From Thermoplasmatota archaeon (lineage in GTDB: Archaea > Thermoplasmatota > Poseidoniia > Poseidoniales > Thalassarchaeaceae): a stretch of 64,000 bases of DNA. This document shows, one piece after another, positions 2,953 to 48,373 of the stretch (its first letter is position 1; every line of letters starts with the position of its first letter). Position numbers and translations under genes: made by a program. Under the pieces are notes generated by a model. It was not told the DNA's origin and made no database searches. It saw nothing but the letters and a program-made list of their open reading frames with translations. The stretch is from NCBI GenBank assembly GCA_030828405.1, contig JAURCP010000003.1, positions 73,460 to 137,459 on the forward strand. The letters run 5' to 3'.

Positions 2953-2979
2953 TTTTTTCGCCTCTTCTTATTCAATATC

Positions 2980-7808: not shown

Positions 7809-7897
7809 AATCTCATCCCCTTTTTCATTAACTCTCAGATATATATTCATTATATCTCTACATAATGATTGAAAAGTGATTCATATTGTCAGTGCCC

Positions 7898-14900: not shown

Positions 14901-17900
14901 GAATCGTGGTTCAAATTCTGGTGGTCCTACACTTTCTAACTCCGCACCACAAGATGTAATAATAGTTGATGATATTCTGCATTATTCAACTCAGAGATCA
15001 ACTGCATGGTGGCAGTCAAATGATCAAATCTGGAGAATCAATTTAACTTCTAATTCTAGTGAATCTACTATTGATGTAGGTCAAGAATTGGGTTGGGAGG
15101 GTAAAATTCACAGTTTAGGGCATGTTTCTGAAGAACTTTGGGTCGGAATTAGGCCTACTCAATACTGGAATCAAGGTGATGGAACGATTGCTCGATGGAA
15201 TATTACTAACGAAACTTGGGAAACTCCTCTAGATACCATAGGTAGTGTTGAGAGAGTGAATGCTCAATTCCTTGGTGAATGTTTCCCAATTAATGTTTCA
15301 TCTTGCGAGTTATGGATTGCATATGGCGATAACATATTGCGTCGTTTCTCAGCACAAACAATGACATTGCTTAATGAATGGACAGATATACCCGGACCAA
15401 TCAGAGGAATAGTTGAATATCAGGATGATTATTTATTTGCAAGTATGGATGGTATTCTACGTTGGGAACCTGATAATGAAACATGGTTAGACCCATGGGT
15501 TGTTAACGATGGATTGCCATCAGATGCAAATGACGAATTGTATACAATGATAACTGTTGGAGAAGATCTGTGGGCAGGAAGTTATAGCGGAGGAGGAGGC
15601 TTCAATACCAATTCAGAAATTATCCGTAAGAACGGTACTACAGGTAACTGGACAACATGGAATTTGGGTAGTGCAGGAATTCCTAATGGTTATACTGCAG
15701 ATATTGAAGTTTGTGATGATATTGTACACATAGCCGTTGGAGCAGTCAATTGGTGGGGGAATCAAGGCGGTATTGCTCGTTACGACTTAGCAGATCATGA
15801 TTCCGATGGAATTACTGATGAATGGATTACTTCCATCCTGACCTCTAATGGTCTGGCGGATAATGACGCTCGCGCCCTTGCTTGCGACGAAGCCAATAGA
15901 ATAATGTACGTTGGTTTTGATGAAGAAGGAGTAGGAATTGACAGATATAATTACAATACCGATCAATTTTTATCTACTCTAACAAATTCTGCAGATGGTA
16001 TTTCAGAAGATAGAATATTCCCTGGAGGTATGCTGCACGATGGAAATGTATTGTTAACAGCGCATCAATTTGATACGACAGGTGGTATTTCTAGGATCAT
16101 TACCTCTGGGACATCTACTTTGAATGGTCAGATCCTCAGTCCTGGGATGGATGGTTGCTCAATCGTTAAAGCACCTTCATCAACAACTCCTATCTATGCT
16201 ATAGGGCGCTCCGGACAAACCTCAGGAGTCAATAGAGTTGATAGATTAGATTCTACAGGTTTGATAGAAAGTGGTTTCGATGAATTAACAGGGCTAACAA
16301 GTGGTAAGATACTAAATATTATTTCCAATGAAACAAATATTTGGGCAACATCAAGTTTAGGTTGGAATTCATTTTATGCATCTTCTGTATTACAAGGAGA
16401 GCTTGTTAATGGTGGCGTTAGGTGGCAATATGGATATTCATTTGATGGCGATATTATCAATGATATCAAATTAGATGGAGATAAAATATGGGTGACTACT
16501 GCAGGCAGTGGTTTGTATAAAATTGACACAATACAGCGAACCTTGACACCTACATCCTCAGCTCTCCACTCACAAATGGATGGAATGCATATTGACGATG
16601 ATGGGATAATGTATGTAGGACTAATGGGTGAATCTGGGACCTCTGCAGGATACCAATCGTTCAACACTAATACTGAAAATTGGGGTCAAGGCAGCCTAAT
16701 AGCAGGTTTACCAAGTAATATTGTTAGAGACTTCCTAGAAGTAGGCAATCATGTATTGATTGCAACTAATGGAGGTATAGGTATGTACAATATGACAAGG
16801 AGTGGATGGGATTCTCCAATCACCTCTTATGATGGTCTCCCATCACCAGTAGTTGAGCATTTAATGCTCTTAGAGGGGCCGATACAAGGAAACGGTACAA
16901 TATTGGCAGGAGGATTAGCAGGTATAACAGTCCTTGAAGAAGGAACTTATTCAATACAGAATACCATAGATTATTCTGACGGTTTAATTGGGAATCGAAT
17001 TTCAGGAATGTTGTTTGCAGACTCTGTAACTCGAGAGGTAATAGTGGGTAACTCTACAATTATCCAACATCATAATGCGTCAATATTCATTTCTCATAAT
17101 GGTCAAGGTGCAACAAGACCGGGTGTTGCTGCTTGGGATATTGATACAGATACTCAAAATGGAACATATCTAATAGATATGATACCAAGTAATAATGTTC
17201 TGAGTTTAGCTGCTGATTCTTGGGGCGTTCATGTTGCTACAGACATTGCTCCAGTAGTACATTGGAACGGTACAATGGGGCAAATGGAAGCAGGCACAAA
17301 CCCATCTAATCTTTTATCATGGCCACCTGTAAAGATGGTTTCGAACGGTAACTATCTAGTCCTAATAGGCTCTGGCGGAATTAATCTTTTAGATGTAGGA
17401 AATTCTCACTCTGTAATTGCATCAACTTCAGCATCGGGATTCAATAATGCATTTATTGAATCTAATTCTCTATATGTTGTTGCAGAAGATGGGCTTCATG
17501 TTTGGGAAGGAAGTTTAATTGAACAGCCACGAGAATATCAAAGAAGAGCGGAACCAATTTATTCTATATTTGGCGGTAGGCAATGGGATATTACATCAAC
17601 AACTCATCCAGGTATGTCTACGGTTTTAGTTAATTCTTCGGATCCTCTGTCAATTCCAAATGATTCTAATTCTCTTCCAGGAATTTTACCTATGTACAAT
17701 GGAGCTTTGACAATCACAAGTCCAGTTACCTCATCTAATGTCTGGGCTCGTTCTGTTTCTTTGAATTATTCTGGCTCATGGGATTTAGCAGGAAGAAACC
17801 CTGCAATCGAGGCAGGATTCCAAAATGCTATTTCCAATGTAGGACCGGGCTCTAATTCAGTAGAATTACATGTACAAATGCAATCTCCAATGAATGGCAC

Positions 17901-20577
17901 AATTAGTGTTAGAATGACTTATGATTGGGAAAGAGTGGAAGTTCCAACAATCCTGACATCTTTCAATAATCGTGGAAATGATGGTGGCGGAGTTCTTGAG
18001 GCTACATGGTTACCATCCGAAGATGCAGCATGGTACGGATATAGAGTCTATATCTGGGATTCTACATCTAACCCTGTATGGGAGCCCAATAAACAAGAAT
18101 TAGAAGATTTCGCAGGATATATGCATGTTCCATTTTGGTCTCAAACTTCAGCCACAATCACTGAAGCAGATCATAATGGAATTATGTCAACACTGGTAGA
18201 TGGCAATAAGTATCGGGCGGCAATCGTTACAGAATATGCCGATGGTTCAATTGGAGAGCCTATGTCATGGCCTTTCAATGCAACTCCAATTGACGAAGTC
18301 CCATCTCCTCCTGAATGGTTGACTGCAAATCCGATTTCTGGTGGTACAGCTGGAACCATTTACGCTGAATGGTCTGCATGTACTGAAATGGATCCTTCCA
18401 AGACTAGGCTCTGGGCAGTTGAACAAGAAATTACAAATGCATTAGCATTAACAAACAATTTTGATATCTCAGCAATTTCTGGAAATAATACTGTTCTACA
18501 ACTAAATCCTGGTTCTACATATTGGTTCGCTGCTGTTTGTGTAGACGAAAGTGGTCAATCGGATCTACTTAATGCCACTATAGTTGGTCCAATAGTTACC
18601 GCCGGAGGGCTTGATGACGGCATTCCACCGATGCCTATTGAAGGAACCACTGCTATCGACGTTCCAGATGATGAAGGAGGGCAAATACAAGTTTCCTGGA
18701 TCCCAAATCAAGAAGATGATTGTACATTCTATACTATATTTGCACTACCTGCTACAAGTTGGCAACCACCGAACAATGTAGATGGTTGGCCTGTTTCATC
18801 ATATGTTTCAGATTGTTCAACCAATTCAACAATTATTTCTTCATTTGGGGAAGCTCCTTTCTTAGATGATACGACTTATTGGATAGGTGTCGTTGCTTCA
18901 GATGATTGGGGTAACCAAGATTTTAGCAACGTATTGGTTGTTGAAGCAACTCCTCAATCTAATAATGGCGGAGTAGGCATACCTCCAGCCAGAGTTGATG
19001 GCTTAGCGGCGTTCGATCATCCTGAAGATGACGGAACCGCTATTGATATAATTTGGAATAGGTCTTTGGCTACCGATTTCTCATTCTACACAATCTGGGT
19101 TTCTGATTTCTATCAAGAAGACCTAACAGAATCTTGGAATGATTGTTCAAATTCTCCTGAATCCTGTGGACTTATAAAATTAAATCAGCAACAAATTGGG
19201 GGCGCTTTCCAACTTCGAATGACAGTGGAGAAAGCACATTATGGAGATACAATTTCTCAATCTTCTTCTTCGGCAATAATACCAGAAGTGCCACTATATG
19301 TTACAATCACTACTCATGATATTCACGGTAATGTATTCCTCTCAGATATGCAGAATTACATGGTATTGGTAATTCCGTCAGATAACAGCGGAGATATATT
19401 CCCACCTTCAAGACTTAATCCTCCTCAGTTAACAGATCGTCCATCAGATGATGGAGACGGTGTATTTGTTACATTCCAAGAAAGCGATGCTTCAGATATT
19501 TCTGAATATTGGATATTTGCAGAAACAATCCCATTTAGTTCCTTAGTAAACCGTCAACCAGCAATGATTCTTGATAGGGATGTAGAGATGCCGGTTCTTC
19601 TTCAACAATTTTCAGATGGTAGTCCATTAGCCCCTAATATCATGTTCTGGGTCAGTGTAATCCCAGTTGACTCATCAGGAAATTATTGGGATGAAGGAAT
19701 AAAAACTTCTTCAATAGCTCTGATTAATGAAAATATTCTTGACCCTGGCCTTCATATTCCTGAAATTGGCGGAATAATTGCTTATTGGGATAGCACTGGA
19801 ACTAAGATTCAAATTGAATGGGATGATAAAAACGATCCTTCAATTGAATCATATTATATTTTCTTATCTTCAATACCATTTGAAGATACTCGTGATGCTG
19901 ACACCTCTCAGAATGTAGCTAAGCCATATTCAAGTTATACATGGCAAGCAACTCCATCTGAAACGGATAATCAATACTCGGTAAATAACGAGAACTCCTA
20001 CTGGATTGCTATAGTTGGATTTGATGGGGAAGTTCACCGTCTTGCAGTTGATCCTCTAGAAATACAACCATGGTCTGAATCTGCTTTTGGTTCTGATAGT
20101 GATGGTTTGGGTGATTCAGGCAGTACTTGGATTAATCAATTAATTGATGGTGATATGAATATGATAATTGCTCTAATTTCTGCAATAATGATATTATTTG
20201 GTGGAGTATTAGTATTGAAACCTAAAGGTAGGTCTGCACCACAGCCATGGGAGATGGGAACCTTAGAAGTCGAACTCGAGGAACAAATGTATGACGAAGA
20301 TTTCGGAATGGATGACGATTTTTCAGCAGATGATTCTATACCTGAAAATGTAGAAAATGTACCATTCGAAGAACCCGTAAATATCGATTCTTTAACTCCA
20401 ACCCAATTAGATAATGAAGTTATGGATGAATTACTTGTAGATGAAGAAGAAATTGATTTAGATGACTTAAGTGACTTAGCAGATGACTTTGATTTGGACG
20501 ATCTCGATGATATGGCTGAAGAATTAGCAGATATAGAAGATGATATCGATACCTCTTTTATTGATGATATTTTGTGA
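11995..20577 (+). CDS. Giant surface protein (2860 aa): signal peptide, many beta-propeller (Reg_prop-like) blades, six FN3-like modules, C-terminal TM anchor, acidic cytoplasmic tail
   Basis: Single uninterrupted ORF. N-terminal hydrophobic MAMVLVALMLLLPWSS. Recurrent blade motifs such as DSDGWVWVGTINSGILRLD, DGDKIWVTTAGSGLYKID, ANRIMYVGFDEEGVGIDRYN. Repeated modules with (D/E)DGG..I.V.W......Y.I. TM MIIALISAIMILFGGVLVL at about 20155-20220, then a D/E-rich tail. The start could also be the ATG at 12037. Confidence 0.9.
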   Translation: MGIAYDSVSGSQKRMAMVLVALMLLLPWSSFESTNLEENSDFMSTIPGAWGAGGSNDTGWIELSAEGANPSNGTYAYGDLFLDFAPGALIDNMTFEVKVNGSDGLWAYEPQITLLDTQTPILDWTELGGFGMQNSFSENQPEVNSAGILDTRLRPNSISDTSWQLPTGISITDLVMEALRPADPKVSFSSLDIEIYDSAVNPVDGRLYILLGDDLLHLDDQTSTLIVDIESDVYGRSLAVDETRNRLLIGTSNGTILQRSLSDSSIMETSLISDAQTFDAITVDDYGTVWATSGCNVYYTSDSIWESYYYCPGGAVKTATDIVSTGDEVYISTYQGLHFLGFSTSPGVNGTLVSVDSNVLWNTGNFLSSDKINDLQLLGSQLLIATDNAGIDRRNLASNSWMATWSTSNWLASNQVIGFGLTEGWLYILAANTVHTYDTNALFFSSQRQLTDFDLKENGNEIISWPDLGKARNPYPGLVLVGDGSGVLGRLVGEINDGTETLVSSPSTNQMNQVIFVDDYEEGEIWVSGGTIIDRFDEATQTWLSPIDISDYVSNPFQITSFVQDSDGWVWVGTINSGILRLDNTDASYMGTVQGIASNAVRSLSHDSYTEILVVGHYEDGLSFVNTSSMTLSDVITEQDGLDSDFINDVVTRYGVAYIATPDAGVMRINLQELSILSSWQSLGADNLEAAPIAVDQDIIYFGLTGFGILLIDRHTSEIIDIWDADGTSGLPDNDVLSLHLDYYGGLIIGMEVPNSGGTSNQAMARWDGSNWEYFETDVPGGNNDPFKINDIKSDADGVVAATNRGVCTWTGWTIIQGNIYEWDECVSPMNNSARFSETFSVELVPLSSSLSENCCTRILAGHDEGASLINRNTGLSVVERWTAGDDTQRARVVKVQDILYIGFENTGIGRYNLTSQEWLQTWDGDQGYINDDDVTVLIPGHIENTIWAGGDFGLTLIDVVNDTVLIAWNRGSNSGGPTLSNSAPQDVIIVDDILHYSTQRSTAWWQSNDQIWRINLTSNSSESTIDVGQELGWEGKIHSLGHVSEELWVGIRPTQYWNQGDGTIARWNITNETWETPLDTIGSVERVNAQFLGECFPINVSSCELWIAYGDNILRRFSAQTMTLLNEWTDIPGPIRGIVEYQDDYLFASMDGILRWEPDNETWLDPWVVNDGLPSDANDELYTMITVGEDLWAGSYSGGGGFNTNSEIIRKNGTTGNWTTWNLGSAGIPNGYTADIEVCDDIVHIAVGAVNWWGNQGGIARYDLADHDSDGITDEWITSILTSNGLADNDARALACDEANRIMYVGFDEEGVGIDRYNYNTDQFLSTLTNSADGISEDRIFPGGMLHDGNVLLTAHQFDTTGGISRIITSGTSTLNGQILSPGMDGCSIVKAPSSTTPIYAIGRSGQTSGVNRVDRLDSTGLIESGFDELTGLTSGKILNIISNETNIWATSSLGWNSFYASSVLQGELVNGGVRWQYGYSFDGDIINDIKLDGDKIWVTTAGSGLYKIDTIQRTLTPTSSALHSQMDGMHIDDDGIMYVGLMGESGTSAGYQSFNTNTENWGQGSLIAGLPSNIVRDFLEVGNHVLIATNGGIGMYNMTRSGWDSPITSYDGLPSPVVEHLMLLEGPIQGNGTILAGGLAGITVLEEGTYSIQNTIDYSDGLIGNRISGMLFADSVTREVIVGNSTIIQHHNASIFISHNGQGATRPGVAAWDIDTDTQNGTYLIDMIPSNNVLSLAADSWGVHVATDIAPVVHWNGTMGQMEAGTNPSNLLSWPPVKMVSNGNYLVLIGSGGINLLDVGNSHSVIASTSASGFNNAFIESNSLYVVAEDGLHVWEGSLIEQPREYQRRAEPIYSIFGGRQWDITSTTHPGMSTVLVNSSDPLSIPNDSNSLPGILPMYNGALTITSPVTSSNVWARSVSLNYSGSWDLAGRNPAIEAGFQNAISNVGPGSNSVELHVQMQSPMNGTISVRMTYDWERVEVPTILTSFNNRGNDGGGVLEATWLPSEDAAWYGYRVYIWDSTSNPVWEPNKQELEDFAGYMHVPFWSQTSATITEADHNGIMSTLVDGNKYRAAIVTEYADGSIGEPMSWPFNATPIDEVPSPPEWLTANPISGGTAGTIYAEWSACTEMDPSKTRLWAVEQEITNALALTNNFDISAISGNNTVLQLNPGSTYWFAAVCVDESGQSDLLNATIVGPIVTAGGLDDGIPPMPIEGTTAIDVPDDEGGQIQVSWIPNQEDDCTFYTIFALPATSWQPPNNVDGWPVSSYVSDCSTNSTIISSFGEAPFLDDTTYWIGVVASDDWGNQDFSNVLVVEATPQSNNGGVGIPPARVDGLAAFDHPEDDGTAIDIIWNRSLATDFSFYTIWVSDFYQEDLTESWNDCSNSPESCGLIKLNQQQIGGAFQLRMTVEKAHYGDTISQSSSSAIIPEVPLYVTITTHDIHGNVFLSDMQNYMVLVIPSDNSGDIFPPSRLNPPQLTDRPSDDGDGVFVTFQESDASDISEYWIFAETIPFSSLVNRQPAMILDRDVEMPVLLQQFSDGSPLAPNIMFWVSVIPVDSSGNYWDEGIKTSSIALINENILDPGLHIPEIGGIIAYWDSTGTKIQIEWDDKNDPSIESYYIFLSSIPFEDTRDADTSQNVAKPYSSYTWQATPSETDNQYSVNNENSYWIAIVGFDGEVHRLAVDPLEIQPWSESAFGSDSDGLGDSGSTWINQLIDGDMNMIIALISAIMILFGGVLVLKPKGRSAPQPWEMGTLEVELEEQMYDEDFGMDDDFSADDSIPENVENVPFEEPVNIDSLTPTQLDNEVMDELLVDEEEIDLDDLSDLADDFDLDDLDDMAEELADIEDDIDTSFIDDIL

Positions 20578-23757: not shown

Positions 23758-24120
23758 ATGGCATATTGTAGGTTGTGTAAACAAAATTATCCTCAGAATC
23801 AATTTGTGAGCGGTAATGGTCCTCGTTATCTTGTATGTGCAAGATGTGCAATTGAGCATGATCTCGCAGATGAAGATGAAGTCCCTCAGTTATATTCTGA
23901 TGATTTAGTTAAAGCTAGATTTGCACTTTTTAGTAGAAGATATAGACTTTGGCTCGCCCTTCTAACTGGATGGACTCTATACTTTACATTGGGTAACGAT
24001 ATCGAACTCTGGTCAGGTTTATTCTTTATCGCATTGGTAATCGGAACTATCTCCACCCCTGTCTTGTATTTCTTAGGTTCAGCACGTTTTAATGCAGAAT
24101 TATCAAAACTATCTCCTTGA
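23758..24120 (+). CDS. Small zinc-ribbon membrane protein (hypothetical)
   Basis: 120-aa ORF. N-terminal CRLC...CARC pair, then two hydrophobic helices (LWLALLTGWTLYFTL; LFFIALVIGTISTPVLYFLG). Confidence 0.45.
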   Translation: MAYCRLCKQNYPQNQFVSGNGPRYLVCARCAIEHDLADEDEVPQLYSDDLVKARFALFSRRYRLWLALLTGWTLYFTLGNDIELWSGLFFIALVIGTISTPVLYFLGSARFNAELSKLSP

Positions 24121-24428
24121 TACCAATTCGGGAATCCTTGAAATAGTGTATACCCACCTCTCACCTTAGAGGGAACAGAGGGTTCCCTATGAAAGCCCGC
24201 GAGATTGGATACGAAATTAGGAGGAGTTGAATAAATTAAAATAGTTTTTTAAGAAATAAAAAAAAGACGCAGTATAGCGTTTTTATAGTAATTCTTAATC
24301 AATATTCAACTCTTTTTCTAATAATACCGGCTCTCCCGAATAATAGTTTATCATAACACATGCGTGAGCATTATCGGAAAGAGAGAACAGCGGGTACTCT
24401 ATAACTAAATTTTAAGGAAGTAAAAAAA

Positions 24429-26108
<1,680 letters not shown>

Positions 26109-40545: not shown

Positions 40546-41694
40546 TTATTTTATTGTTGGTGCACTTTCAGTAATTTCCTCTGTCGTTTCGGAATTCTCT
40601 GATTCTAGTTCGGCGATACTGATTGAAGACTGCGCTCTATGGTAAATTTCTCTTAAGGTCTGATCACCAATTTCTAGATACACTCTTGTCGTTGAAATAT
40701 TTGCATGTCCTAGAAGTCTTTGTATTGTTACTAAATCTGCTCCTCTCTCTAGAAGTCCGGTTGCAAATGAATGTCTTAAAACATGTGGACTTAATCTCGT
40801 CCTTGGGATATCTGAAGCATCAGCGATCCGATCCAATAACTTCTGAACAGAGCGGGGGTTTAATCTCCGACTTCGACTTGAGAAGAATAATGACCTTTGG
40901 TCTTTTTCTCTAGTACAATTTTTCAATCTAGCGTTTCTAATCGGTCTCCAAGCATCTAAAGCATCCAATGTAGCATTAGTGAAAAGCACAGTCCTATCTT
41001 TCTCTCCTTTTCCACCAATAACTAAGGCCGACAAGTCTTCTAAATCAACATCATCTAAGTCTAAATTACAGATTTCTGAACATCTCAGCCCAGTATCAAG
41101 CATCATTGTAATTACAGGGAAAGCAATAGGATCTTCAGATCGAATCGCAGCTAATCTGACCTTTTGCAAATCATTTTTACCCAATGTTCTGGGTAGTGAT
41201 CTAGATCTTGCAGGTCTCTGAATCCATTCAGGGATAGTATATCCCATCCACTTCAATAAATGTGTAATTGCTGCAATTCTTGCATTGATTGTTGCAGGTC
41301 TTAAATCTCCAATTGTGTTTAACCATGAATCAATTCTACCATTATTAGGATTGCTTCTGTTAAATAATTCTGAAACTTGAATCTCTTTAATTTCATTCCA
41401 AGACATTATTTCCTCGTTGGGTAGAGGTGTTGTTGTGAATGTTTTTGCTGCTATCACATACGATCTTATTGTATGCTCACTCTTTTTTTCTGTTTTCAAT
41501 TGTTGAGACCAGCATTCAAACCATGGCAATAAAGCCAATCGCTGAAGTCTTTGTGGTAGATTCTTTGTATGTATTAACAATTCTGCACCATTCAGATTTA
41601 ACTCTTCATTTGAGTTTGCAACAACCTTTGAGATTGTTTTTTCTTCATTCTGTTCAGTCAATTCCCTCGCCTCATCGTCGCGAACGACGCGCAT
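40546..41694 (-). CDS. Tyrosine recombinase (XerA/XerC/D-like) with ~70-aa N-terminal extension
   Basis: Catalytic-domain motifs LDTGLRCSEICNL (R), HVLRHSFATGLLERGADL (H-x-x-R), LLGHANISTTRVYLEI (H...Y). Confidence 0.88.
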   Translation of the reverse strand: MRVVRDDEARELTEQNEEKTISKVVANSNEELNLNGAELLIHTKNLPQRLQRLALLPWFECWSQQLKTEKKSEHTIRSYVIAAKTFTTTPLPNEEIMSWNEIKEIQVSELFNRSNPNNGRIDSWLNTIGDLRPATINARIAAITHLLKWMGYTIPEWIQRPARSRSLPRTLGKNDLQKVRLAAIRSEDPIAFPVITMMLDTGLRCSEICNLDLDDVDLEDLSALVIGGKGEKDRTVLFTNATLDALDAWRPIRNARLKNCTREKDQRSLFFSSRSRRLNPRSVQKLLDRIADASDIPRTRLSPHVLRHSFATGLLERGADLVTIQRLLGHANISTTRVYLEIGDQTLREIYHRAQSSISIAELESENSETTEEITESAPTIK

Positions 41695-41799
41695 CCCATG
41701 TCCCTAAGGACAAAGCCATGAATCCCTGATTGGACTTGAATGCTTCTCTCATTTTCATAATTAGATTACATTTTGTAATGCTTATGAAAAGATGCCAAT

Positions 41800-42756
41800 T
41801 CATGAATCTGCTTGATTTTTTTCATCAATATTACTAGATTGATGTTTCTGATTCATCAAAGAATGATTTTCTTCATTTTTTTGTAACAAATAATTCAATC
41901 TCTTCGACACCGCTCCTGCAACATTAATCTGTGATGCTTTTTCTATACCCTCTAATCCAGGGCTAGAATTAACTTCTAGGACAAGAGCCCCTCTTTCTGA
42001 TTCAAGTAGATCTACACCAGCTATTTCTAGTCCTAAAATTCTAGCCGCTTTAATAGCTATTTTTTCGAAATCTTGATCTATTTCGATCTTCTCTACACTG
42101 CCTCCAAGATGAAAGTTTGAACGGAATTCATCTCCATTTGCCCTTCTCCTCATACATGCAACAACTTCCCCCCCTACAACCAATGCTCTGATATCTTTTC
42201 CATGAGATTCTTCAATATATTCTTGCACCAAAGGTCTCATTTCTCTTTCCAACATTTGGTAAACTAATTGACGAGCGTGTTGTTCAGTTTTTGCTAAAAA
42301 CACTCCTGCACCGTGAGTCCCTTCTGTCGACTTTACCACGCAAGGAGTTCCACCAACTCTACTAATTGCTCTATTTGTGTCTTCCCATGAAACCACTTGT
42401 GCGGTGATGGGGACTGGAATATTTCCTGAAGACATCATTTGGCAAGCAATCAATTTGTCCCTACTCCTAGTTATCCCATCACTAGAGTTCATGACAATTA
42501 CGCCCATTCTTTCAAACTGTCTGACTATAGTGACTCCTCTTCTGGTTATTGAATAGCCAATTCTCGGAATTACTGCTTCACATTCCACAGGCCACCCTCT
42601 GTAGAATATTTTTCCTCCTTTGTCATCAACTATCATTGTTAGAGATAGAGGATCCAATATTTTGACATCCCAACCAGCATTTTCTGCTTCTTCTGAAAGG
42701 CGCTTTGTAGAGTATAATTTTGGCCCACGAGATAGTATAACTAATCGAGGCCTCAT
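41800..42756 (-). CDS. rimK: RimK-family ATP-grasp alpha-L-glutamate ligase
   Basis: MRPRLVILSRGPKLYSTKRL..., VVKSTEGTHGAGV, GVDLLESERGALVLEVNSSPGLEG. Confidence 0.9.
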   Translation of the reverse strand: MRPRLVILSRGPKLYSTKRLSEEAENAGWDVKILDPLSLTMIVDDKGGKIFYRGWPVECEAVIPRIGYSITRRGVTIVRQFERMGVIVMNSSDGITRSRDKLIACQMMSSGNIPVPITAQVVSWEDTNRAISRVGGTPCVVKSTEGTHGAGVFLAKTEQHARQLVYQMLEREMRPLVQEYIEESHGKDIRALVVGGEVVACMRRRANGDEFRSNFHLGGSVEKIEIDQDFEKIAIKAARILGLEIAGVDLLESERGALVLEVNSSPGLEGIEKASQINVAGAVSKRLNYLLQKNEENHSLMNQKHQSSNIDEKNQADS

Positions 42757-42841: not shown

Positions 42842-45163
42842 ATGAAGGAAGGTATTGAAAGACTTGGGTCATCAACAAGTCCTGTTATTATGGCCGACGG
42901 GGAGTCTTACACGTTCGACTCATTATCAAAAATGATGGTTTTTGACTTGAGAGAAATATGTAAAAAAGAGGAAATATCATCCTCTGGTAACAAAGCAGAA
43001 TTAATTGTGAGAATTCTTGGCCATTTCTCATCTGATAATGATAATAACGATTTATTTCTCGAAGAAGCACCAATAGAAACTCAACCCAAAGATTCTCTAA
43101 TTGAAGAAAAAAATGAAACTACCCGCTCTTCCAAGGAGATAGATGATGCGATAAATAGATTGATTTCTCGTGTTGAATCTAAAGATAGTTTAGTTATTGA
43201 AGATAATTCTGAAGAAAAAGAAGTAACAGAGGAATTGAAAATAGTTGAAGAAATAATGGAAGCAGAGATTTTTGAGGCAGAAATTATTGAAGAACCAGTA
43301 ATCATAGAAAATGAAGAACCTTCTTTAATTTTGGACGAAGACGACCCTTGGTCATTAGAAAATAAAGAAGTAAAAACAATTGTTGACCCCCCATCTGAGG
43401 TAAAAGAAGACCAACCATCAATGACAATTGTGTTACCTTCAATGGATGTTTTTAAGAAATATTGGCAGCAAATTTCTGCAGTTATTGTAGTAGTTTTACT
43501 GGTAGGTGCTGGAGTTGTTTACTTCCTCTCAGCGGACTCTTCGTTCCAAGCTAGGCCATTAAATTATGGAGATTCAATGACATTCACTTTGAGTGACGGA
43601 GAAATTATTCTAGATGGTGATGATATGGTTGCATTACTGAGAGATAATTTACCAGATACCGCGATCACAGATGCCTGTAATAGGTTAACAGTAGGACTTA
43701 CAGGAACTGGATCAATTTCAATTGTTGAAGGAGATTTGAATGAAATTTCCCATCCAATTGATAGGCAGTCTTCTGAATTATTAGGAGTAATTAATGCCAA
43801 AGACGCCTATGGGCGTTCTCATTTAACAGTACAACAAGAAATAATACATGATCTCGAAGTAGATCTTGAAGGTAAAACTTGGAGAGATACTAATGTATGT
43901 GGAAATTTAGGTTGGTCTTTACCGGGTAATGATTTACTGATGACAACCAATCTTTACGAAGAATTAACTGAAACAAGTCTATTAAGATCTGAATCAATTA
44001 TTTCATTTACCGATGTTGACGATACTACAACAAATGCAAATATCGTAACTTTTGGCGCCGATGGTTTTGGAAATTTAGACGATATAGCCCCTATTCTGAC
44101 ATTCCCATTGGCTCCTATTGAATTGCATAATTTCTTTGGCGATATTAAGTTAAATTCGGGAATGAATTCTGACTCAATTTCCGATTGGAATAAAGATTGG
44201 GAATGGGTAGTTGGTTCAGAACAAAATAATGCAGAACACGGTCTAGTTTACCCAGTACAAATTTCTCATTCGGAAATTGAAAGGTGTCTTGGAAGAATGA
44301 ATATCGACATTCTTGTAAAGAATGGAGTCCCTTGGGCAGTTGAACAAGAAGTTGATATCTTGATTAACAAAGATCAGAGTACTTCTGACTGTAGTTTTAT
44401 CGAAAGTGCGGCCTTTGAAGCAGCACTGCCTGAGGGAGAATTAACTGTAAGAATGAAGATGAGTATGATAACTTCCGAATCTGGTTCAAAGTCAATTTCT
44501 TGGAGTTCAACATATGCAGGTAGACCGGGGCCTGGAGAAGACAAACTCAGTACTAATGCAAAGAAAGAATGGTCAACAGCGATGTGGGATGAGTCAGAAA
44601 TCAGGTCATTTACATTAGAGGATGCAATTAGTTGCTTACGCGCCAACCATTCTAATCGGGATATTACAGTAGCAATTGATAGTGATGGATATATTTGGCA
44701 GTCTATTTATTCTCTAAATGAGGTGCAAGAATGGAATCTTTCATGGGTTCGTTCGGATGAAACATCAGGGTGGGCGATAGTTAGCCAATCAAATAATGCT
44801 TGTTCATTTGATGACGAAGGTCGTGATGATGGAGAAGTAATTTGGAACCAAGATGCCATTCCTTCAACTCACACATTAAAGAATCTTGAAGCCCGTATTC
44901 TAGATTCCAATAGATATCAAGACTTATCCTTGTCTTTGGGCGATAATCAGTGGTCTGAAGGAAGTAGTTTTGGATACAGACTTTCAGTATCTGAAGATAG
45001 CGATCTTCTTTCATTTTTACCTGGCGATCTTACAGAAGGGCAAGTAACAGTAGCAGGAAGTAGGGAATGGATAGACTCTAATCGTAAGCATAACATAAAT
45101 TTTGCAATGGATGCTCAAACAGGAAGGATGCTCGCATGGGCCGAGATAATTGGCCAAACTTAA
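42842..45163 (+). CDS. Single-pass membrane protein: cytoplasmic SAP/HeH-like DNA-binding motif, acidic linker, TM helix, ~540-aa extracytoplasmic domain
   Basis: LSKMMVFDLREICKKEEISSSGNKAELIVRILGHF (about 42920-43022) fits the SAP/HeH helix-extended-helix pattern. E-rich linker follows. TM ISAVIVVVLLVGAGVVYFL is at about 43472-43530. Start is ambiguous (ATG at 42803, 42842 or 42890); the ORF-track start at 42620 overlaps rimK and I reject it. Confidence 0.72.
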   Translation: MKEGIERLGSSTSPVIMADGESYTFDSLSKMMVFDLREICKKEEISSSGNKAELIVRILGHFSSDNDNNDLFLEEAPIETQPKDSLIEEKNETTRSSKEIDDAINRLISRVESKDSLVIEDNSEEKEVTEELKIVEEIMEAEIFEAEIIEEPVIIENEEPSLILDEDDPWSLENKEVKTIVDPPSEVKEDQPSMTIVLPSMDVFKKYWQQISAVIVVVLLVGAGVVYFLSADSSFQARPLNYGDSMTFTLSDGEIILDGDDMVALLRDNLPDTAITDACNRLTVGLTGTGSISIVEGDLNEISHPIDRQSSELLGVINAKDAYGRSHLTVQQEIIHDLEVDLEGKTWRDTNVCGNLGWSLPGNDLLMTTNLYEELTETSLLRSESIISFTDVDDTTTNANIVTFGADGFGNLDDIAPILTFPLAPIELHNFFGDIKLNSGMNSDSISDWNKDWEWVVGSEQNNAEHGLVYPVQISHSEIERCLGRMNIDILVKNGVPWAVEQEVDILINKDQSTSDCSFIESAAFEAALPEGELTVRMKMSMITSESGSKSISWSSTYAGRPGPGEDKLSTNAKKEWSTAMWDESEIRSFTLEDAISCLRANHSNRDITVAIDSDGYIWQSIYSLNEVQEWNLSWVRSDETSGWAIVSQSNNACSFDDEGRDDGEVIWNQDAIPSTHTLKNLEARILDSNRYQDLSLSLGDNQWSEGSSFGYRLSVSEDSDLLSFLPGDLTEGQVTVAGSREWIDSNRKHNINFAMDAQTGRMLAWAEIIGQT

Positions 45164-45220: not shown

Positions 45221-45237
45221 AAGCGCCGAAGGCGCTT
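45221..45237 (+). promoter_or_regulatory. Perfect 7-bp inverted repeat AAGCGCC-GAA-GGCGCTT ending 2 nt before the parA ATG
   Basis: Read directly. It is a GC-rich island in AT-rich DNA within the 76-nt spacer after the upstream gene's stop. It could be an operator, a terminator or a translational hairpin. Confidence 0.3.
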
Positions 45238-45239
45238 GT

Positions 45240-46184
45240 ATGTCTGCTAATGATGACAGTAATCTTCCGGAGGTTGAGAAGATTCCTCTGGTAATCGATG
45301 CTGAATTTACTGAGGAAGAAGAAATTCAAAGTCAAACAAGTAGTTTGCATGAAATGTCTTCTCAAAAAACAAGTAGACCACTGGATTTACCCTATCCAAC
45401 CCCCACTCTCGAAGGTCGTGCAAGGGTAATTACTGTAATTAATCAGAAAGGGGGGGTTGGAAAAACAACTACTGTCATTAATATTGCATCTCAATTGGCA
45501 TTGAGGGGGCATCGAATTTTAGTTGTTGATGCAGATTCTCAAGGAAACTGTGCAACTGGCCTCGGAGTTGATAAGAGTAAAGTTCAGAATACAACAAGAG
45601 ATCTTATTCTTTCTCCAGAGACCGCTATTTCTGCTCGACATGCAACTGCAGTTGATGGATTACACATGATAGTTGGAGACAGAAGTTTAGTAGGATTAGA
45701 GCAGGAAATGTTGAGACAATTAGGTAGAGAAAGAAGGCTTTCAGAAGCTCTAGAGCCATTACTTCCACATTATGATATAGTAATTATCGACACCCCTCCT
45801 TCACTAGGTTTGGTAACTATTAATGCACTTGTCGCGAGTAATGGAGTTTTAATTCCAGTACAAACTGAATATTTCGCTCTTGAAGGTCTTGCAATGTTGG
45901 CAGGAACTATAAGAGAAGTTAGAAATCTTCTAAATCCACATTTAGGTGTTGATGGAGTTTTGTTGACAATGCATGCCAGTACTCTTCTCAATCAACAAGT
46001 AGCTTCTGAGATTTTTGAACATCTTCCTGAGTTTGTAATTCGCCCAGCTATACGCCGTAATATCAAATTAGCAGAGGCGCCGAGTCATGGTGTACCAATA
46101 CACTTACATGACCCAAACAGTAATGGTGGCAAAGATTACCAAGATGTTTCTGATGAATTAGAAAAAAGATGGGGATTAAAGTAA
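45240..46184 (+). CDS. parA: ParA/Soj-family partition ATPase with ~60-aa acidic N-terminal extension
   Basis: Deviant Walker A VINQKGGVGKTTT, VVDADSQGN, IVIIDTPPSLG. Internal ATG at 45240; the ORF-track start at 45150 overlaps the upstream gene. Confidence 0.92.
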   Translation: MSANDDSNLPEVEKIPLVIDAEFTEEEEIQSQTSSLHEMSSQKTSRPLDLPYPTPTLEGRARVITVINQKGGVGKTTTVINIASQLALRGHRILVVDADSQGNCATGLGVDKSKVQNTTRDLILSPETAISARHATAVDGLHMIVGDRSLVGLEQEMLRQLGRERRLSEALEPLLPHYDIVIIDTPPSLGLVTINALVASNGVLIPVQTEYFALEGLAMLAGTIREVRNLLNPHLGVDGVLLTMHASTLLNQQVASEIFEHLPEFVIRPAIRRNIKLAEAPSHGVPIHLHDPNSNGGKDYQDVSDELEKRWGLK

Positions 46185-47146
46185 TGTCCTCTAAAGGCCT
46201 TGGAAGAGGGCTAGAATCAGTAGCAGAATTAGCCAAAGACGGGCCTGATCTTACTTCATATGTATCAGTACCAAAGTTACCTGTTGATTCTCCAAGAGTA
46301 GCAGTTTTATGGATGATTTTTGGTAGTATCTCATTTGGAACTATGAATGCATTAGTGAAATGGACATCAGTAAATGCCGATGTCTGGATGATAATTTTTG
46401 TTCGCTCACTAGTTATCGCCTTAGCAGTAGCTATTTTTGCTAGATTTCAAGGTATTAGCCTCAAAGTCAAAGATAGAAGAAAGATGTTTTTGCGATGTCT
46501 TACTGGATTAATTGCAATGTTGCTATATTTCACAGCATTATCATTAATTCCTATCGGTCAGGCAGTGACATTACAGTATACTGCGCCGTTATTTGTGGCA
46601 TTACTTTCTGGTCGATTAATTAGTGAAAAAGTGTCATCTTCAGTACTCGTTCTGCTAATGACTGCCTTTATCGGAATAGTTCTGATAGTTTCTCCTGATT
46701 TTGATAGTATTGATTCCAATGCATTACTTGCTTTGGGTTCGGGATTATTCGCTGGCTTAGCATACATTTTTGTTCGTGATTTAAGAAAAACGGAGTCACC
46801 TTCTTCTGTAGTATTTTGGTTTGCCGCTTTTTCTGTTCTTGGCTCGATGGTTCAAGCAGTTCCAAACTTATCCGCTTTATCTCTAGAAATGGTTGCTGCC
46901 TTAATAGGAATAGGGGTGGGTGCAGGAGGCGGTCAAGTAGGAATTACCATGGCTTATCATAAGGCAAATGCCGCTTGGGTTAGTGCATTTTCTTATCTTA
47001 CAGTGATAATAGCAACAATTTACGGAATTATTTTGTTTGATGAGATATTAACTCTGAAAATCGTTCTCGGAGGTTTAATGATAATAGGTTCAGGAATAGC
47101 ATTGGCATTTTTTACTCCATCCAGTTCTGAAAGTGAAAAATCTTAG
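46184..47146 (+). CDS. EamA/DMT-family 10-TM transporter carrying a ParB-type N-terminal peptide (MSSKGLGRGLESVAEL)
   Basis: The ATG shares one nucleotide with the parA stop (TAATG at 46182-46186). About 35 cytoplasmic residues are followed by ten hydrophobic helices in two 5-TM halves, typical of EamA. The N-terminal GLGRGLE matches the ParB/Spo0J N-terminal consensus. Confidence 0.85.
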   Translation: MSSKGLGRGLESVAELAKDGPDLTSYVSVPKLPVDSPRVAVLWMIFGSISFGTMNALVKWTSVNADVWMIIFVRSLVIALAVAIFARFQGISLKVKDRRKMFLRCLTGLIAMLLYFTALSLIPIGQAVTLQYTAPLFVALLSGRLISEKVSSSVLVLLMTAFIGIVLIVSPDFDSIDSNALLALGSGLFAGLAYIFVRDLRKTESPSSVVFWFAAFSVLGSMVQAVPNLSALSLEMVAALIGIGVGAGGGQVGITMAYHKANAAWVSAFSYLTVIIATIYGIILFDEILTLKIVLGGLMIIGSGIALAFFTPSSSESEKS

Positions 47147-47817
47147 TCGAACCATTCAGAAATTTCATCAAGACTTTTTCTTTTAAGATTGGGTACTTTG
47201 GCATTTTCTGCTGGATATCCGACAGGCATCAGTAACATTGCGTGTTCATACTCGGGTCTCTCCAGCAATTCTCTCAAGAATTTCATAGGCGATGGGGTAT
47301 GGGTCAATGTAGTCAGTCCCATATTTTGTATAGCTGCAATGAATAAACCAATGGCAATCCCACATGACTCTTGGGAATAATAAGTAGGTGCAATTTCTCC
47401 ATTCATACGTTCTCTTTTAGATTGTCTAAATACAACAACAACCCATGGTGCATCTGTGATATGTTCTTTGATATGGTCTGTGCCTAAAGGTCGTAATAGT
47501 TCAGCCCATGCTTCTGGCATTCTTTCAGAATATGTTTTTTCCTCTTCTTCCTCAGCTGCATCACGAATTTTATTCTTTAAATCTTCATTTGATATCGCAA
47601 CGAAAGTCCAAGGTTGTAAATGAGCTCCAGATGGTGCTGTACCTGCGGTTTTAATCGCCATTTCTATTAGATTACGGGGCACATGTTTCGTTGAGAAATG
47701 TCTAGTAGTACGTCTTTTATTCATCAACTGAAAAAAATCAAATGCATTTTCTGCCATTTTTTCTTTAGAAATCGGGGAGAACTCTAAATCAATGAAATCA
47801 GAGTCTTCATCATTCAT
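47143..47817 (-). CDS. Nitroreductase-superfamily flavoprotein, iodotyrosine deiodinase (IYD)-like
   Basis: RRTTRHFSTKHVP...IKTAGTAPSGAHLQPWTFVAISNEDLKNKIRDAAEEEEE closely mirrors the IYD-subfamily N-terminal region as I recall it. Confidence 0.8.
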   Translation of the reverse strand: MNDEDSDFIDLEFSPISKEKMAENAFDFFQLMNKRRTTRHFSTKHVPRNLIEMAIKTAGTAPSGAHLQPWTFVAISNEDLKNKIRDAAEEEEEKTYSERMPEAWAELLRPLGTDHIKEHITDAPWVVVVFRQSKRERMNGEIAPTYYSQESCGIAIGLFIAAIQNMGLTTLTHTPSPMKFLRELLERPEYEHAMLLMPVGYPAENAKVPNLKRKSLDEISEWFD

Positions 47818-48373
47818 ATTTTCCCTCAGATCTTTGTATCATCAGTCCTGCAATAATTATAGCTGAAAGAGTTAGAGAAAAAATAAACCCAGGAACACTA
47901 TCGTTTTCTTCTTCTGTCATGCAAGAAGTATCATTACCTCCCCATTCTTCTCCATCATACCAGCAATCAGACCAAATTTTCCAACCAAATCCTGTATCAG
48001 GGACTCTTACCACAGTATCATTATCGTCTATTTGATCAATTCTCCAATTCAAATAGCTTGCATCTTCATCTACAACTACTGATGCAGTCCATGTTTTATT
48101 GTCTGAAGTATTCATTTCAATTGTTTTAGGAGGATAACATACTCCTGAATTAATACATACTTGAGTAATCCAGTTTATTTGACTGATGTTAGTAGATTCA
48201 TTTTTCAGTGTTAGAGAAATAGTAAATTCTTGTTCTTCATACACAACATTACTGTATTCCATAGATTCGAAATCAGTTTCATTCAGATTTGTGGCTTCAT
48301 TAATTCCACCATCTGCAGCAATGACAGAGGATGCTAAAATAGCAACTGTAACCAATGCCAACAGTTTATTCAC
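47810..48373 (-). CDS. Secreted glycoprotein-like protein with PGF-CTERM archaeal sorting signal
   Basis: GTG start. Signal peptide MNKLLALVTVAILASSVIA, many N-x-S/T sequons, and C-terminus VPGFIFSLTLSAIIIAGLMIQRSEGKYE (PGF, hydrophobic helix, basic residues). Confidence 0.6.
   Translation of the reverse strand: MNKLLALVTVAILASSVIAADGGINEATNLNETDFESMEYSNVVYEEQEFTISLTLKNESTNISQINWITQVCINSGVCYPPKTIEMNTSDNKTWTASVVVDEDASYLNWRIDQIDDNDTVVRVPDTGFGWKIWSDCWYDGEEWGGNDTSCMTEEENDSVPGFIFSLTLSAIIIAGLMIQRSEGKYE

What the first reader, a model, noticed from the sequence alone, without database searches (positions are those of the whole stretch)
42842..45163. Membrane protein with a cytoplasmic SAP/HeH DNA-binding motif directly upstream of parA
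Seen: near the N-terminus, LSKMMVFDLREICKKEEISSSGNKAELIVRILGHF fits the SAP/HeH (helix-extended-helix) pattern L..L.V.eLR..c..rgl...G.KaeLI.RI. It is followed by a Glu-rich linker, one TM helix and a ~540-aa extracytoplasmic domain of unknown fold. Established: SAP/HeH/LEM-type motifs bind DNA, and in eukaryotes HeH/LEM proteins of the inner nuclear membrane tether chromatin to a membrane. The same fold occurs at the Rho N-terminus. Inference: this is a prokaryotic DNA-to-membrane tether candidate. Its position 76 nt upstream of parA suggests it could be the DNA-binding adaptor that the ParB-less module lacks.
Basis: partly seen in the sequence, partly recalled or inferred. Interest (0 to 1): 0.7.

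Follow-up and report, generated by a model that had tools for sequence, protein, structure and literature searches.

The report
Archaeal membrane protein with cytoplasmic SAP domain
This is a real, conserved gene of marine group II archaea for a single-pass membrane protein with a eukaryote-type SAP (DNA-binding-type) domain on the cytoplasmic side. It may tether DNA to the membrane, but its constant genetic partner is a small protein carrying a ParB-like peptide, not parA.

Summary
ORF 42842-45163 (+) encodes a 773-aa protein with these parts:
- a SAP domain above the Pfam threshold (aa 28-62; 30.8 bits, or 35.3 bits for the N-terminal 80 aa alone)
- a disordered acidic linker
- one TM helix (aa ~207-231, N-in)
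- a 540-aa Cys-containing ectodomain that models confidently but matches no solved fold.

The family is small and is named only from Poseidoniales. NCBI already calls it "SAP domain-containing protein".

A Soj-type parA lies directly downstream in 7 of 13 sampled lineages and is missing from the locus in 6.

The near-constant neighbour (12 of 13) is a small uncharacterised protein. Its N-terminus (RGLGRGLxDLL) looks like the ParA-binding peptide of bacterial ParB. In this window that peptide is fused to the EamA transporter that follows parA. So the module is not adaptor-less, and the SAP protein carries no such peptide.

Best reading (about 0.4): a DNA-to-membrane tether that serves as the membrane-side platform of a Poseidoniales-specific nucleoid-positioning module, with ParA as an optional component. 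DNA binding, topology and all interactions are inferred, not shown.

It is a new variant of known kinds and of moderate interest.

The parts
42842..45163 (+). Gene for the SAP-TM protein (773 aa; alternative start at 42890 = M17)
   Evidence: ORF and translation. 319 homologues at E<=1e-3. The architecture is conserved in 29 representatives down to 22% identity.
42923..43027 (+). SAP domain, aa 28-62 (helix, extended loop, helix), cytoplasmic
   Evidence: Pfam PF02037 at 30.8 bits, above the gathering score of 23.9, and 35.3 bits on the N-terminal 80 aa. The family profile hits solved SAP domains at E about 1e-11. AF2 helices 33-42 and 51-63 at pLDDT about 90. L36, G49, L54 and R57 are invariant.
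43037..43456 (+). Acidic, mostly disordered cytoplasmic linker (aa 66-205)
   Evidence: Net charge -29 over aa 66-215. pLDDT <50 over residues 66-98 and 113-201, with one helix modelled at aa 98-115. Length varies between relatives, giving a whole cytoplasmic N-terminal part of 109-312 aa.
43253..43294 (+). Conserved acidic-hydrophobic short motif IMEAEIFEAEIIEE (aa 138-151) inside the linker
   Evidence: Recognisable in most of the 29 representatives as h-EAE-hh-EAE-hh-E and degenerate in the most divergent ones (P0127, P0149, P0159). Its column conservation is 0.56, equal to that of the SAP domain and well above the flanking linker at 0.27-0.32. Its partner is unknown.
43460..43534 (+). Single transmembrane helix (aa ~207-231), N-in / C-out
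   Evidence: KD maximum of 2.81 at aa 211-229, with KK on the N-side. AF2 helix 208-230. In 28 of 29 relatives the strongest hydrophobic segment lies at the aligned position (P0143 is the exception), and K/R is usually richer on the N-flank.
43535..45160 (+). Extracytoplasmic beta-rich domain (aa 232-773) with six invariant Cys (279, 353, 482, 517, 598, 654)
   Evidence: Invariant Cys, Trp, Gly and Pro columns. AF2 pLDDT about 90. There is no convincing Foldseek match: the best PDB hit is 6ntr at E=2.8e-4 and TM 0.43, and the C-terminal half has a best E of 0.014.
45221..45237 (.). Perfect palindrome AAGCGCC-GAA-GGCGCTT, 3 nt upstream of the parA ATG
   Evidence: Conserved in L001-L007 while the rest of the spacer varies. 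L009 has a change on both arms that keeps the palindrome (GAGCGCC...GGCGCTC). It is unique in the window. The fold z-score is only -1.5. Its role is unknown.
45240..46184 (+). Soj-type ParA ATPase (314 aa) with a roughly 60-aa acidic N-terminal extension
   Evidence: Pfam AAA_31 at 6e-54. Closest solved structures are bacterial chromosomal ParA/Soj: 8ray at 1e-57 and T. thermophilus Soj 1wcv at 8e-52.
46184..46288 (+). ParB-like ParA-binding peptide (MSSKGLGRGLESVAELAKDGPDLTSYV...) at the cytoplasmic N-terminus of the EamA protein
   Evidence: The start overlaps the parA stop as TAATG. The motif aligns with the N-termini of the small proteins in relatives and with genuine ParB N-termini, ALGRGLDALI and GLGRGLAALI. 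The K/R distribution over the loops puts the N-terminus inside.
46184..47146 (+). EamA (DMT) 10-TM transporter body carrying that peptide (ORF may also start at 46169)
   Evidence: Pfam EamA at 5.8e-24. The same fusion occurs in L009.
40546..42756 (-). Conserved upstream neighbours: a XerA/XerC-like tyrosine recombinase (40546-41694) and a RimK ATP-grasp ligase (41800-42756). This is synteny only.
   Evidence: Pfam and NCBIfam. Both are present upstream of the SAP gene in most sampled loci.

Best explanation
The gene encodes a bitopic membrane protein specific to Poseidoniales (marine group II archaea).

**Architecture.** The N-terminal SAP domain and a long acidic, flexible linker lie in the cytoplasm. 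One helix crosses the membrane. A large, probably disulfide-bonded domain of novel fold sits outside.

**Proposed function.** The SAP domain binds chromosomal DNA without sequence specificity. The protein would then hold part of the nucleoid at the membrane and cell envelope on a tether whose whole cytoplasmic part is 109-312 aa long.

**Module.** It belongs to a conserved module. Its near-constant partner is the product of the next gene, a small protein whose N-terminus resembles the ParA-binding peptide of bacterial ParB. In roughly half of the lineages, including this one, a Soj-type ParA is encoded between the two genes. In this window's lineage the peptide has been moved onto an EamA membrane transporter.

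**Model.** ParA-ATP sits on the nucleoid. Its activating peptide is held at the membrane, either directly through EamA here or, by inference, through binding of the small protein to the SAP-TM complex elsewhere. The SAP protein supplies a static DNA-membrane link.

**Shown:** domain identity, conserved architecture, gene order.

**Inferred:** topology, DNA binding, every protein-protein contact, and the cellular role.
For: **SAP domain.** It is above the Pfam threshold and conserved in the family. AF2 predicts the helix-extension-helix fold. Among the 21 representatives that keep a clear SAP core, the Gly-x-Lys and Leu-Ile-x-Arg positions typical of SAP are invariant.

**Precedent.** SAP and HEH domains bind DNA. 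N-terminal HEH domains of inner-nuclear-membrane proteins anchor chromatin to a membrane (PMC3337167; PMC11936186).

**Topology.** No signal peptide, an acidic 210-aa N-terminal region, a KK flank, and six invariant Cys found only C-terminal of the TM.

**Family.** Small and lineage-restricted: 119 hits among 1.84 billion representatives. Source names are only Thalassarchaeaceae, Poseidoniales or Euryarchaeota.

**Gene order.**
- SAP-TM is followed by parA in 7 of 13 lineages.
- It is followed by the RGL-peptide protein, or the peptide-EamA fusion, in 12 of 13.
- The gaps are 1-10 nt in four of the six loci without ParA.
- ParA sits in the same slot in distant clades of the tree.

**The peptide.** It matches genuine ParB N-termini. 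[quoted passage not shown]

**The EamA fusion.** Replacing the small protein's C-terminal domain by a membrane protein suggests that this domain's job is membrane localisation.
Against: - There is no direct evidence of DNA binding. The SAP core is only about neutral in charge (6 K/R against 7 D/E) and sits next to a strongly acidic linker that would repel DNA.
- The three most divergent members (P0149, P0152, P0159) have lost detectable SAP similarity. Two of them have also lost the conserved Lys.
- DNA-binding-type folds at the cytoplasmic end of bitopic proteins can be protein-binding modules instead. RodZ is an example (my own knowledge).
- ParA is absent from the locus in 6 of 13 lineages.
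- No interaction could be modelled, because no multimer prediction was available.
- The ectodomain, which is 70% of the protein and its best-conserved part, is left unexplained.
Confidence: 0.4

Rival explanations
1. The SAP domain is a protein-interaction module, not a DNA binder. The protein would be an envelope-spanning scaffold, comparable to RodZ. Its cytoplasmic SAP domain and acidic motif would recruit the small RGL protein, ParA or another cytoplasmic partner.
For: - The SAP core is not basic.
- The second conserved cytoplasmic element is an acidic-hydrophobic short linear motif, typical of partner binding.
- The SAP-TM and small-protein genes are almost contiguous (1-10 nt) in four loci, which suggests a stoichiometric complex.
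- The family persists where ParA is absent.
Against: The domain scores as canonical SAP and is closest to SAP domains whose described function is DNA binding, such as Tho1 and Ku70. The conserved Lys and Arg positions are retained in 21 of the 29 representatives.
Confidence: 0.25
2. It is mainly a cell-surface or envelope protein whose function lies in the large ectodomain, for example envelope integrity, or lipid or glycan handling. On this view its position next to parA reflects conserved chromosomal synteny, not a shared function.
For: - The ectodomain is the largest and best-conserved part (530 aligned columns, many invariant W/G/P/C).
- Its only weak structural resemblances are to open beta-barrel or lipid-carrier-like proteins: 6ntr (DUF1849), the ApoB barrel, LmcA and BFA1.
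- The whole region Xer-RimK-...-PUA-S8e-SRP19-PolB is syntenic across the order, so adjacency alone is weak evidence.
- ParA is dispensable in 6 of 13 lineages.
Against: - It does not explain why a cytoplasmic SAP domain and a linker motif are conserved down to about 25% identity.
- The gaps to the small-protein gene are only 1-10 nt in four loci, which points to co-expression.
- ParA sits precisely between these two genes in distant clades.
Confidence: 0.2
3. One reading: the SAP-TM protein is the centromere- or DNA-binding adaptor that replaces ParB for the neighbouring ParA.
For: It lies immediately upstream of parA, on the same strand, in 7 of 13 lineages. No ParB/ParBc domain was found in any window ORF of at least 150 aa that was scanned. 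It has a DNA-binding-type domain.
Against: - The ParB-like ParA-binding peptide is on a different protein, namely EamA here and the small protein elsewhere. None is present in SAP-TM.
- SAP domains are not known as sequence-specific centromere binders (my own knowledge).
- No parS-like repeats occur around the locus.
- SAP-TM is kept in six lineages that have no parA in the locus.
- A cargo adaptor fixed in the membrane could not travel with a chromosome.
Confidence: 0.1

Closest known systems
Eukaryotic SAP-domain proteins (Tho1, MKL1/myocardin, SARNP/Hcc-1, PIAS/SIZ1, Ku70, SAF-A)
   Same: The N-terminal domain is a canonical SAP domain by profile (E about 1e-11 to solved SAP domains; Pfam score above threshold). 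It has the predicted helix-extension-helix fold.
   Different: Those proteins are soluble and nuclear. This one is archaeal, with a single TM helix and a 540-aa extracellular domain. DNA binding has not been tested.
HEH/LEM inner-nuclear-membrane proteins (Heh1/Src1, Heh2, Lem2, Man1)
   Same: A helix-extension-helix domain sits at the N-terminus of an integral membrane protein and faces the DNA-containing compartment, separated from the membrane by a flexible linker. In those proteins the HEH domain anchors chromatin to the membrane (PMC3337167).
   Different: - One TM instead of two, and no MSC/winged-helix C-terminal domain.
- A large domain on the far side of the membrane.
- The Pfam HeH model is only sub-threshold in relatives, and LEM is not hit.
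- There is no evidence of common descent. The resemblance is one of architecture.
Bacterial ParABS and other ParA/MinD cargo-positioning systems (ParB, Noc, McdB, PomX, TlpT)
   Same: The neighbouring ATPase is a Soj-type ParA. Its presumed partner carries a ParB-type N-terminal LG(R/K)GL peptide. This follows the general rule that ParA partners present a short basic N-terminal peptide (PMC12462528).
   Different: - No ParB/Srx CTPase domain, no HTH and no parS were found.
- The peptide sits on a novel 109-184-aa protein or on an EamA transporter.
- SAP-TM has no peptide, and ParA is optional.
RodZ (bacterial bitopic protein: cytoplasmic HTH, TM, periplasmic beta domain)
   Same: The overall layout is the same: a DNA-binding-type fold in the cytoplasm, a single TM and a beta-rich outer domain. 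RodZ is the precedent for such a fold serving protein binding, to MreB (my own knowledge).
   Different: There is no sequence or fold relation: no HTH or DUF4115 hits. The organisms and the likely partners are different.

Membership tests
SAP domain (Pfam PF02037) | Profile match above the curated gathering score | tested here: met
   30.8 bits for the whole protein and 35.3 bits for aa 1-80, against a gathering score of 23.9. 26 of 29 relatives hit.
SAP domain (Pfam PF02037) | Two helices separated by an extended loop with an invariant Gly, plus conserved Leu and basic positions | tested here: met
   AF2 helices 33-42 and 51-63 at pLDDT about 90. L36, G49, L54 and R57 are invariant across all 29 representatives. 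K51 is invariant among the 21 clear members.
SAP domain (Pfam PF02037) | Binds DNA | not testable with these tools
   Needs EMSA or anisotropy. The core charge is about neutral.
HEH/LEM-MSC inner nuclear membrane proteins | N-terminal HeH or LEM domain by profile | tested here: not met
   PF12949 HeH appears only at E=0.095-0.34 in two relatives and not in the window protein. PF03020 LEM is absent.
HEH/LEM-MSC inner nuclear membrane proteins | Two TM segments and a C-terminal MSC (Man1/Src1) domain | tested here: not met
   A single hydrophobic segment. No Pfam family other than SAP on the whole protein at E<=1.
ParB-type ParA partner (centromere-binding adaptor) | N-terminal basic and aliphatic ParA-binding peptide (LG(R/K)GLxAL) | tested here: not met
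   Absent from SAP-TM. Present instead on the EamA protein and on the small proteins.
ParB-type ParA partner (centromere-binding adaptor) | Sequence-specific DNA-binding domain together with repeated centromere sites | tested here: not met
   No HTH, RHH or ParBc hit. Only chance-level repeats in 38.5-47.3 kb. The single palindrome at 45221 is unique in the window.
ParB-type ParA partner (centromere-binding adaptor) | Obligate co-occurrence with the cognate parA | tested here: not met
   parA is adjacent in 7 of 13 lineages and absent from the locus in 6.
Bitopic N-in/C-out (type II) membrane protein | No signal peptide, one TM, positive-inside flank, extracytoplasmic Cys pairs | tested here: met
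   Heuristic only: hydropathy, K/R flanks, and six invariant Cys exclusively C-terminal of the TM. No dedicated topology predictor or experiment was available.

The most novel reading that the evidence does not exclude
Poseidoniales archaea would use a membrane-centred chromosome-organising machine that has not been described in any domain of life.
- A SAP-domain transmembrane protein pins the nucleoid to the envelope.
- A bacterial-type Soj ParA is driven not by ParB on DNA but by a ParB-derived peptide displayed at the membrane, on a small adaptor protein or on an EamA transporter.

The result would be a prokaryotic functional counterpart of the eukaryotic HEH/LEM chromatin-membrane tethers.
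Probability: 0.2. Interest if true: 0.8.

Novelty: new variant of a known kind. Interest (0 to 1): 0.55.

Why it matters
How archaea outside the Sulfolobales organise and segregate their chromosomes is largely unknown, and I know of no described archaeal DNA-membrane tether of this type.

This locus offers three concrete, testable parts in one of the most abundant archaeal groups in the surface ocean:
- a SAP-TM protein
- a Soj-type ParA
- a ParB-like peptide grafted onto non-ParB scaffolds.

If the SAP domain binds DNA, this would be a prokaryotic example of the layout eukaryotes use at the inner nuclear membrane: a helix-extension-helix domain, a flexible linker and a membrane anchor.

The peptide transplant also shows how ParA partners can evolve by moving a short motif between scaffolds.

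If the SAP domain does not bind DNA, the protein remains a lineage-specific envelope protein of unknown fold and of limited general interest.

Tried and rejected
- **Close relatives.** A genome-contig scan with the single protein returned only close relatives (85-98% identity, L001-L007). Their identical synteny says nothing.
- **Metagenome scans.** Context was therefore sampled with 12 exact-protein look-ups instead.
- **Tandem SAP in L007.** An apparent tandem SAP duplication in L007 is an assembly artefact: a run of N followed by out-of-frame repeated sequence.
- **Ectodomain fold.**
  - phmmer against PDB sequences gave nothing.
  - Foldseek of the full model against the PDB gave only weak beta-barrel-like hits.
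  - Foldseek against viral structures gave nothing beyond the SAP segment.
  - A separate model of the C-terminal half gave a best E of 0.014, to double-hotdog dehydratases at TM <=0.16. I do not accept that match.
- **The peptide against PDB.** The RGLGRGL peptide, alone and as a profile, gave no significant PDB hit. This is expected for a 10-residue motif. The comparison with ParB therefore rests on two translated genuine ParB N-termini and on the literature.
- **Repeats and regulatory signals.** A repeat search for parS-like sites found only chance-level matches. The sigma-70 and terminator scans were at or below the shuffle expectation and do not apply to archaea anyway.
- **Literature.** Searches linking Poseidoniales, SAP domains and ParA found nothing relevant.
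- **Other SAP hits.** Multi-SAP proteins among the weak hits look eukaryotic or giant-virus-like and are unrelated beyond the SAP repeat.
Full report
**1. The observation**

The window is a chromosomal stretch of an AT-rich archaeon (GC about 0.38). It carries housekeeping genes: ribosomal proteins S4, S13 and S8e, SRP19, EF-1alpha, PolB, FEN1 and cytochrome oxidase.

The ORF from the ATG at 42842 to the stop at 45163 gives 773 aa. M17 at 42890 is a possible alternative start.

- **SAP domain.** Residues 28-62 match Pfam SAP at 30.8 bits, above the gathering score of 23.9. On the N-terminal 80 aa alone the score is 35.3 bits, E=8.5e-9. A profile of this segment from 21 relatives hits solved SAP domains (MKL1, Tho1, Hcc-1, SIZ1, Ku70, DEK) with E down to 9e-12. 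AlphaFold2 on a 29-sequence alignment gives helix 33-42, an extended loop and helix 51-63 at pLDDT about 90.
- **Linker.** It holds 43 acidic residues in 150. The model is disordered over residues 66-98 and 113-201, with one helix placed at aa 98-115.
- **TM helix.** A single hydrophobic segment at aa 211-229 is preceded by KK.
- **Ectodomain.** The remaining 540 aa model confidently (pLDDT about 90) as a beta-rich body.
- **Distance to parA.** The gap to the parA ATG at 45240 is 76 nt.

**2. The family**

Close homologues are annotated by NCBI as "SAP domain-containing protein" from Candidatus Thalassarchaeaceae or Poseidoniales. The SAP annotation is therefore not new.

An exhaustive HMMER scan of 1.84 billion cluster representatives found only 119 hits at E<=1e-3 and 41 at E<=1e-30. 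The full-length members are 680-870 aa.

An alignment of 29 full-length representatives (22-85% identity) shows the same layout throughout:
- an N-terminal SAP domain, with L36, G49, L54 and R57 invariant
- an acidic linker of variable length, giving a whole cytoplasmic N-terminal part of 109-312 aa
- a conserved acidic-hydrophobic motif, h-EAE-hh-EAE-hh-E (aa 138-151 here), which is as conserved as the SAP domain itself in most members and degenerate in the most divergent ones
- one TM
- an ectodomain with six invariant cysteines and many invariant Trp, Gly and Pro.

SAP is detected by Pfam in 26 of 29. The three most divergent members (P0149, P0152, P0159) have lost detectable similarity.

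Topology is inferred as N-in/C-out for four reasons. There is no signal peptide. The N-terminal region is long and strongly acidic. K/R residues are usually enriched on the N-side of the TM. Conserved Cys occur only on the C-side. This is a heuristic argument, not a dedicated prediction or an experiment.

**3. The ectodomain**

Sequence search of the PDB gave nothing.

Foldseek of the full model gave only weak hits to open beta-barrel-like proteins. The best is 6ntr (DUF1849 from Brucella) at E=2.8e-4, TM 0.43 and rmsd 11.6. The ApoB barrel, BFA1 and LmcA follow.

The viral library matched only the SAP segment.

A separate model of the C-terminal half (pLDDT 87) had a best E of 0.014.

**4. 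Genomic context**

The seven genome loci found first are 85-98% identical and trivially syntenic.

I therefore looked up 12 diverged representatives individually and translated their neighbours. Counting the window's own clade, this gives 13 lineages.

| Feature | Count |
|---|---|
| Soj-type parA directly downstream on the same strand | 7 of 13 (one has a small opposite-strand TM2 gene in between) |
| No parA in the locus | 6 of 13 |
| Small RGL protein, or its N-terminal peptide fused to EamA, in the module | 12 of 13 |

- **The small protein.** It is 109-184 aa, has no Pfam domain, and starts with RGLGRGLxDLL...DLPFLxxYG. It follows parA where parA is present. Where parA is absent it follows the SAP gene directly, with gaps of only 1-10 nt in four loci.
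- **Its family.** It has 294 cluster representatives, all hypothetical proteins. All source names but one are Euryarchaeota, Poseidoniales or Poseidoniaceae; one cluster is labelled Rickettsiales in NCBI.
- **The fusion.** In the window's clade and in L009 the C-terminal domain of this protein is missing. Its N-terminal roughly 30 aa head an EamA transporter instead. That gene overlaps the parA stop as TAATG, and its N-terminus is predicted to be cytoplasmic.
- **History of parA.** On a rough NJ tree of the ectodomain, parA-containing loci occur in all major clades except the most divergent one, and always in the same slot. This favours an ancestral three-gene module with repeated loss of parA.
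- **Wider synteny.** Xer-RimK upstream and PUA-S8e-SRP19-aminotransferase-PolB downstream are conserved across the order. Adjacency alone is therefore weak evidence of shared function.

**5. The ParA side**

The ATPase is closest to bacterial chromosomal ParA/Soj: 8ray at 1e-57 and T. thermophilus Soj at 8e-52.

Two genuine ParB proteins encoded next to ParA homologues on bacterial replicons start MAALKRSALGRGLDALI and MAGQKKGGLGRGLAALI. This is the same motif as KGLGRGLESV (window) and KRGLGRGLDDLL (L013).

The module is therefore not ParB-less in the functional sense. It has a ParB-peptide carrier that lacks every other ParB domain. No ParBc domain was found in any scanned window ORF. No parS-like repeats were found.

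**6. Interpretation**

The SAP-TM protein is best read as a membrane-anchored protein that presents a DNA-binding-type domain to the cytoplasm on a long flexible tether. Precedent exists: SAP and HEH domains bind DNA, and HEH domains at the N-terminus of inner-nuclear-membrane proteins anchor chromatin.

The tight coupling to the RGL-peptide protein is informative. So is the replacement of that protein's C-terminal domain by a membrane transporter in this lineage. Together they suggest that the ParA activator normally works at the membrane, plausibly bound to the SAP-TM complex. I give this composite model about 0.4.

- the ParA-binding peptide lies on another protein
- parA is dispensable for retention of the SAP gene
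- a membrane-fixed protein is not a mobile cargo adaptor.

Two rivals remain serious. In one, the SAP domain acts as a protein-binding module, by analogy with RodZ (0.25). In the other, the protein is essentially an envelope protein whose neighbours are merely syntenic (0.2).

Points against DNA binding are the near-neutral charge of the SAP core, the adjacent polyacidic linker, and the decay of the SAP domain in the most divergent members.

**7. Comparison and novelty**

By domain membership this is a SAP-domain protein, with all testable criteria met.

It is not a member of the HEH/LEM-MSC family. The HeH and LEM profiles are not met, it has one TM rather than two, and it has no MSC domain. 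It does share their architectural logic.

It is not a ParB-type adaptor.

The combination is not described in the literature I could search. It comprises a canonical SAP domain, a TM and a large novel ectodomain in an archaeon, inside a module with an optional Soj ParA and a transplanted ParB peptide. I rate it a new variant of known kinds.

Interest is moderate (0.55). The parts are concrete and testable in vitro. However, the organisms are uncultured, the key activity is unproven, and the SAP annotation itself is already public.

Noticed in passing
window 46184-46288 (N-terminus of the EamA gene 46169/46184-47146); L013:3398-3844, L017:11229-11696, L011:12055-12543, L019:9098-9550, L008:3187-3675, L014:10609-11079, L018:8107-8436, L020:8187-8636, L023:7141-7539, L024:6375-6857: A ParB-like ParA-binding peptide (RGLGRGLxDLL, followed by D-DLPFLxxYG) heads a Poseidoniales-specific family of small proteins with no known domain (294 cluster representatives). 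In this window's clade the peptide is fused to an EamA transporter instead. The motif stays intact in some loci that have no parA (for example L024).
   Followed up: yes
window 45221-45237: A GC-rich perfect palindrome, AAGCGCC-GAA-GGCGCTT, ends 3 nt before the parA start codon. It is conserved in L001-L007 while the rest of the spacer drifts. In L009 both arms have changed so that the palindrome is kept. Other lineages have different palindromes at the same place (L013 CCGAATTCGG, L017 GGGTGGCACCC). It could be an operator or a 5' hairpin.
   Followed up: partly
window 45240-45420 and 46161-46181 (ParA N- and C-termini): The ParA has a roughly 60-aa acidic N-terminal extension with a conserved h-h-D-A/V-E-F-x-E motif, which resembles the acidic motif in the SAP-TM linker. 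All sampled Poseidoniales ParAs end in RWGL or RWGI. The position aligned with the DSR arginine of the closest solved ParA (8ray) is Thr here, and the RNVRL arginine is Lys.
   Followed up: no
L011:6807-7886, L017:6689-7897, L015:359-1393, L018:4896-5936, L019:4777-5916, L023:3899-4921, L014:4651-7911: In many relatives a further bitopic membrane protein is encoded directly upstream of the SAP-TM gene. It has an outer domain, a TM and a cytoplasmic Pro-rich tail; in L014 the tail is expanded to about 700 aa of PPMGGP-like repeats. It is absent from the window's clade, where RimK is the direct neighbour.
   Followed up: no
window 47810-48373 (-): A 187-aa protein with a signal peptide, a conserved QICINSG-CY Cys motif and a C-terminal TM is syntenic on the opposite strand in most sampled loci (L008, L013, L014, L018, L020, L023, L024). 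It gives only a sub-threshold DsbD_N hit (E=1.7e-4).
   Followed up: no
window 40546-41694 (-) and 41800-42756 (-): A XerA/XerC-like tyrosine recombinase (below the NCBIfam cut-offs) and a RimK ATP-grasp ligase are conserved upstream of the module in most lineages. This puts a chromosome-dimer-resolution-type enzyme near the ParA module.
   Followed up: partly
window 11995-20577 (+), 4044-7850 (-), 1648-3933 (-): Very large ORFs of 2860 aa and 1267 aa, and two ORFs of 433 and 316 aa, have essentially no Pfam match. The 2860-aa ORF has a single Reg_prop repeat hit.
   Followed up: no
window 24001-26000: A local composition spike (GC 0.46, AT skew +0.24) coincides with ORF 24429-26108, which encodes bacterial-type TSP3 repeats.
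   Followed up: no
L007:6343-6660: An apparent duplication of the SAP region in MAG UBA89 is a scaffold gap (a run of N) with repeated out-of-frame sequence. It is not a real tandem SAP.
   Followed up: yes
P0152 (L008:480-3080), residues ~120-160: The most divergent high-GC relative seems to carry a second helix-extension-helix-like segment in its long linker (LLALRKADLLELADAEGAEASPRMTKAQIVEALLDA, Rho_N-like), while its first SAP has lost the conserved Lys.
   Followed up: no
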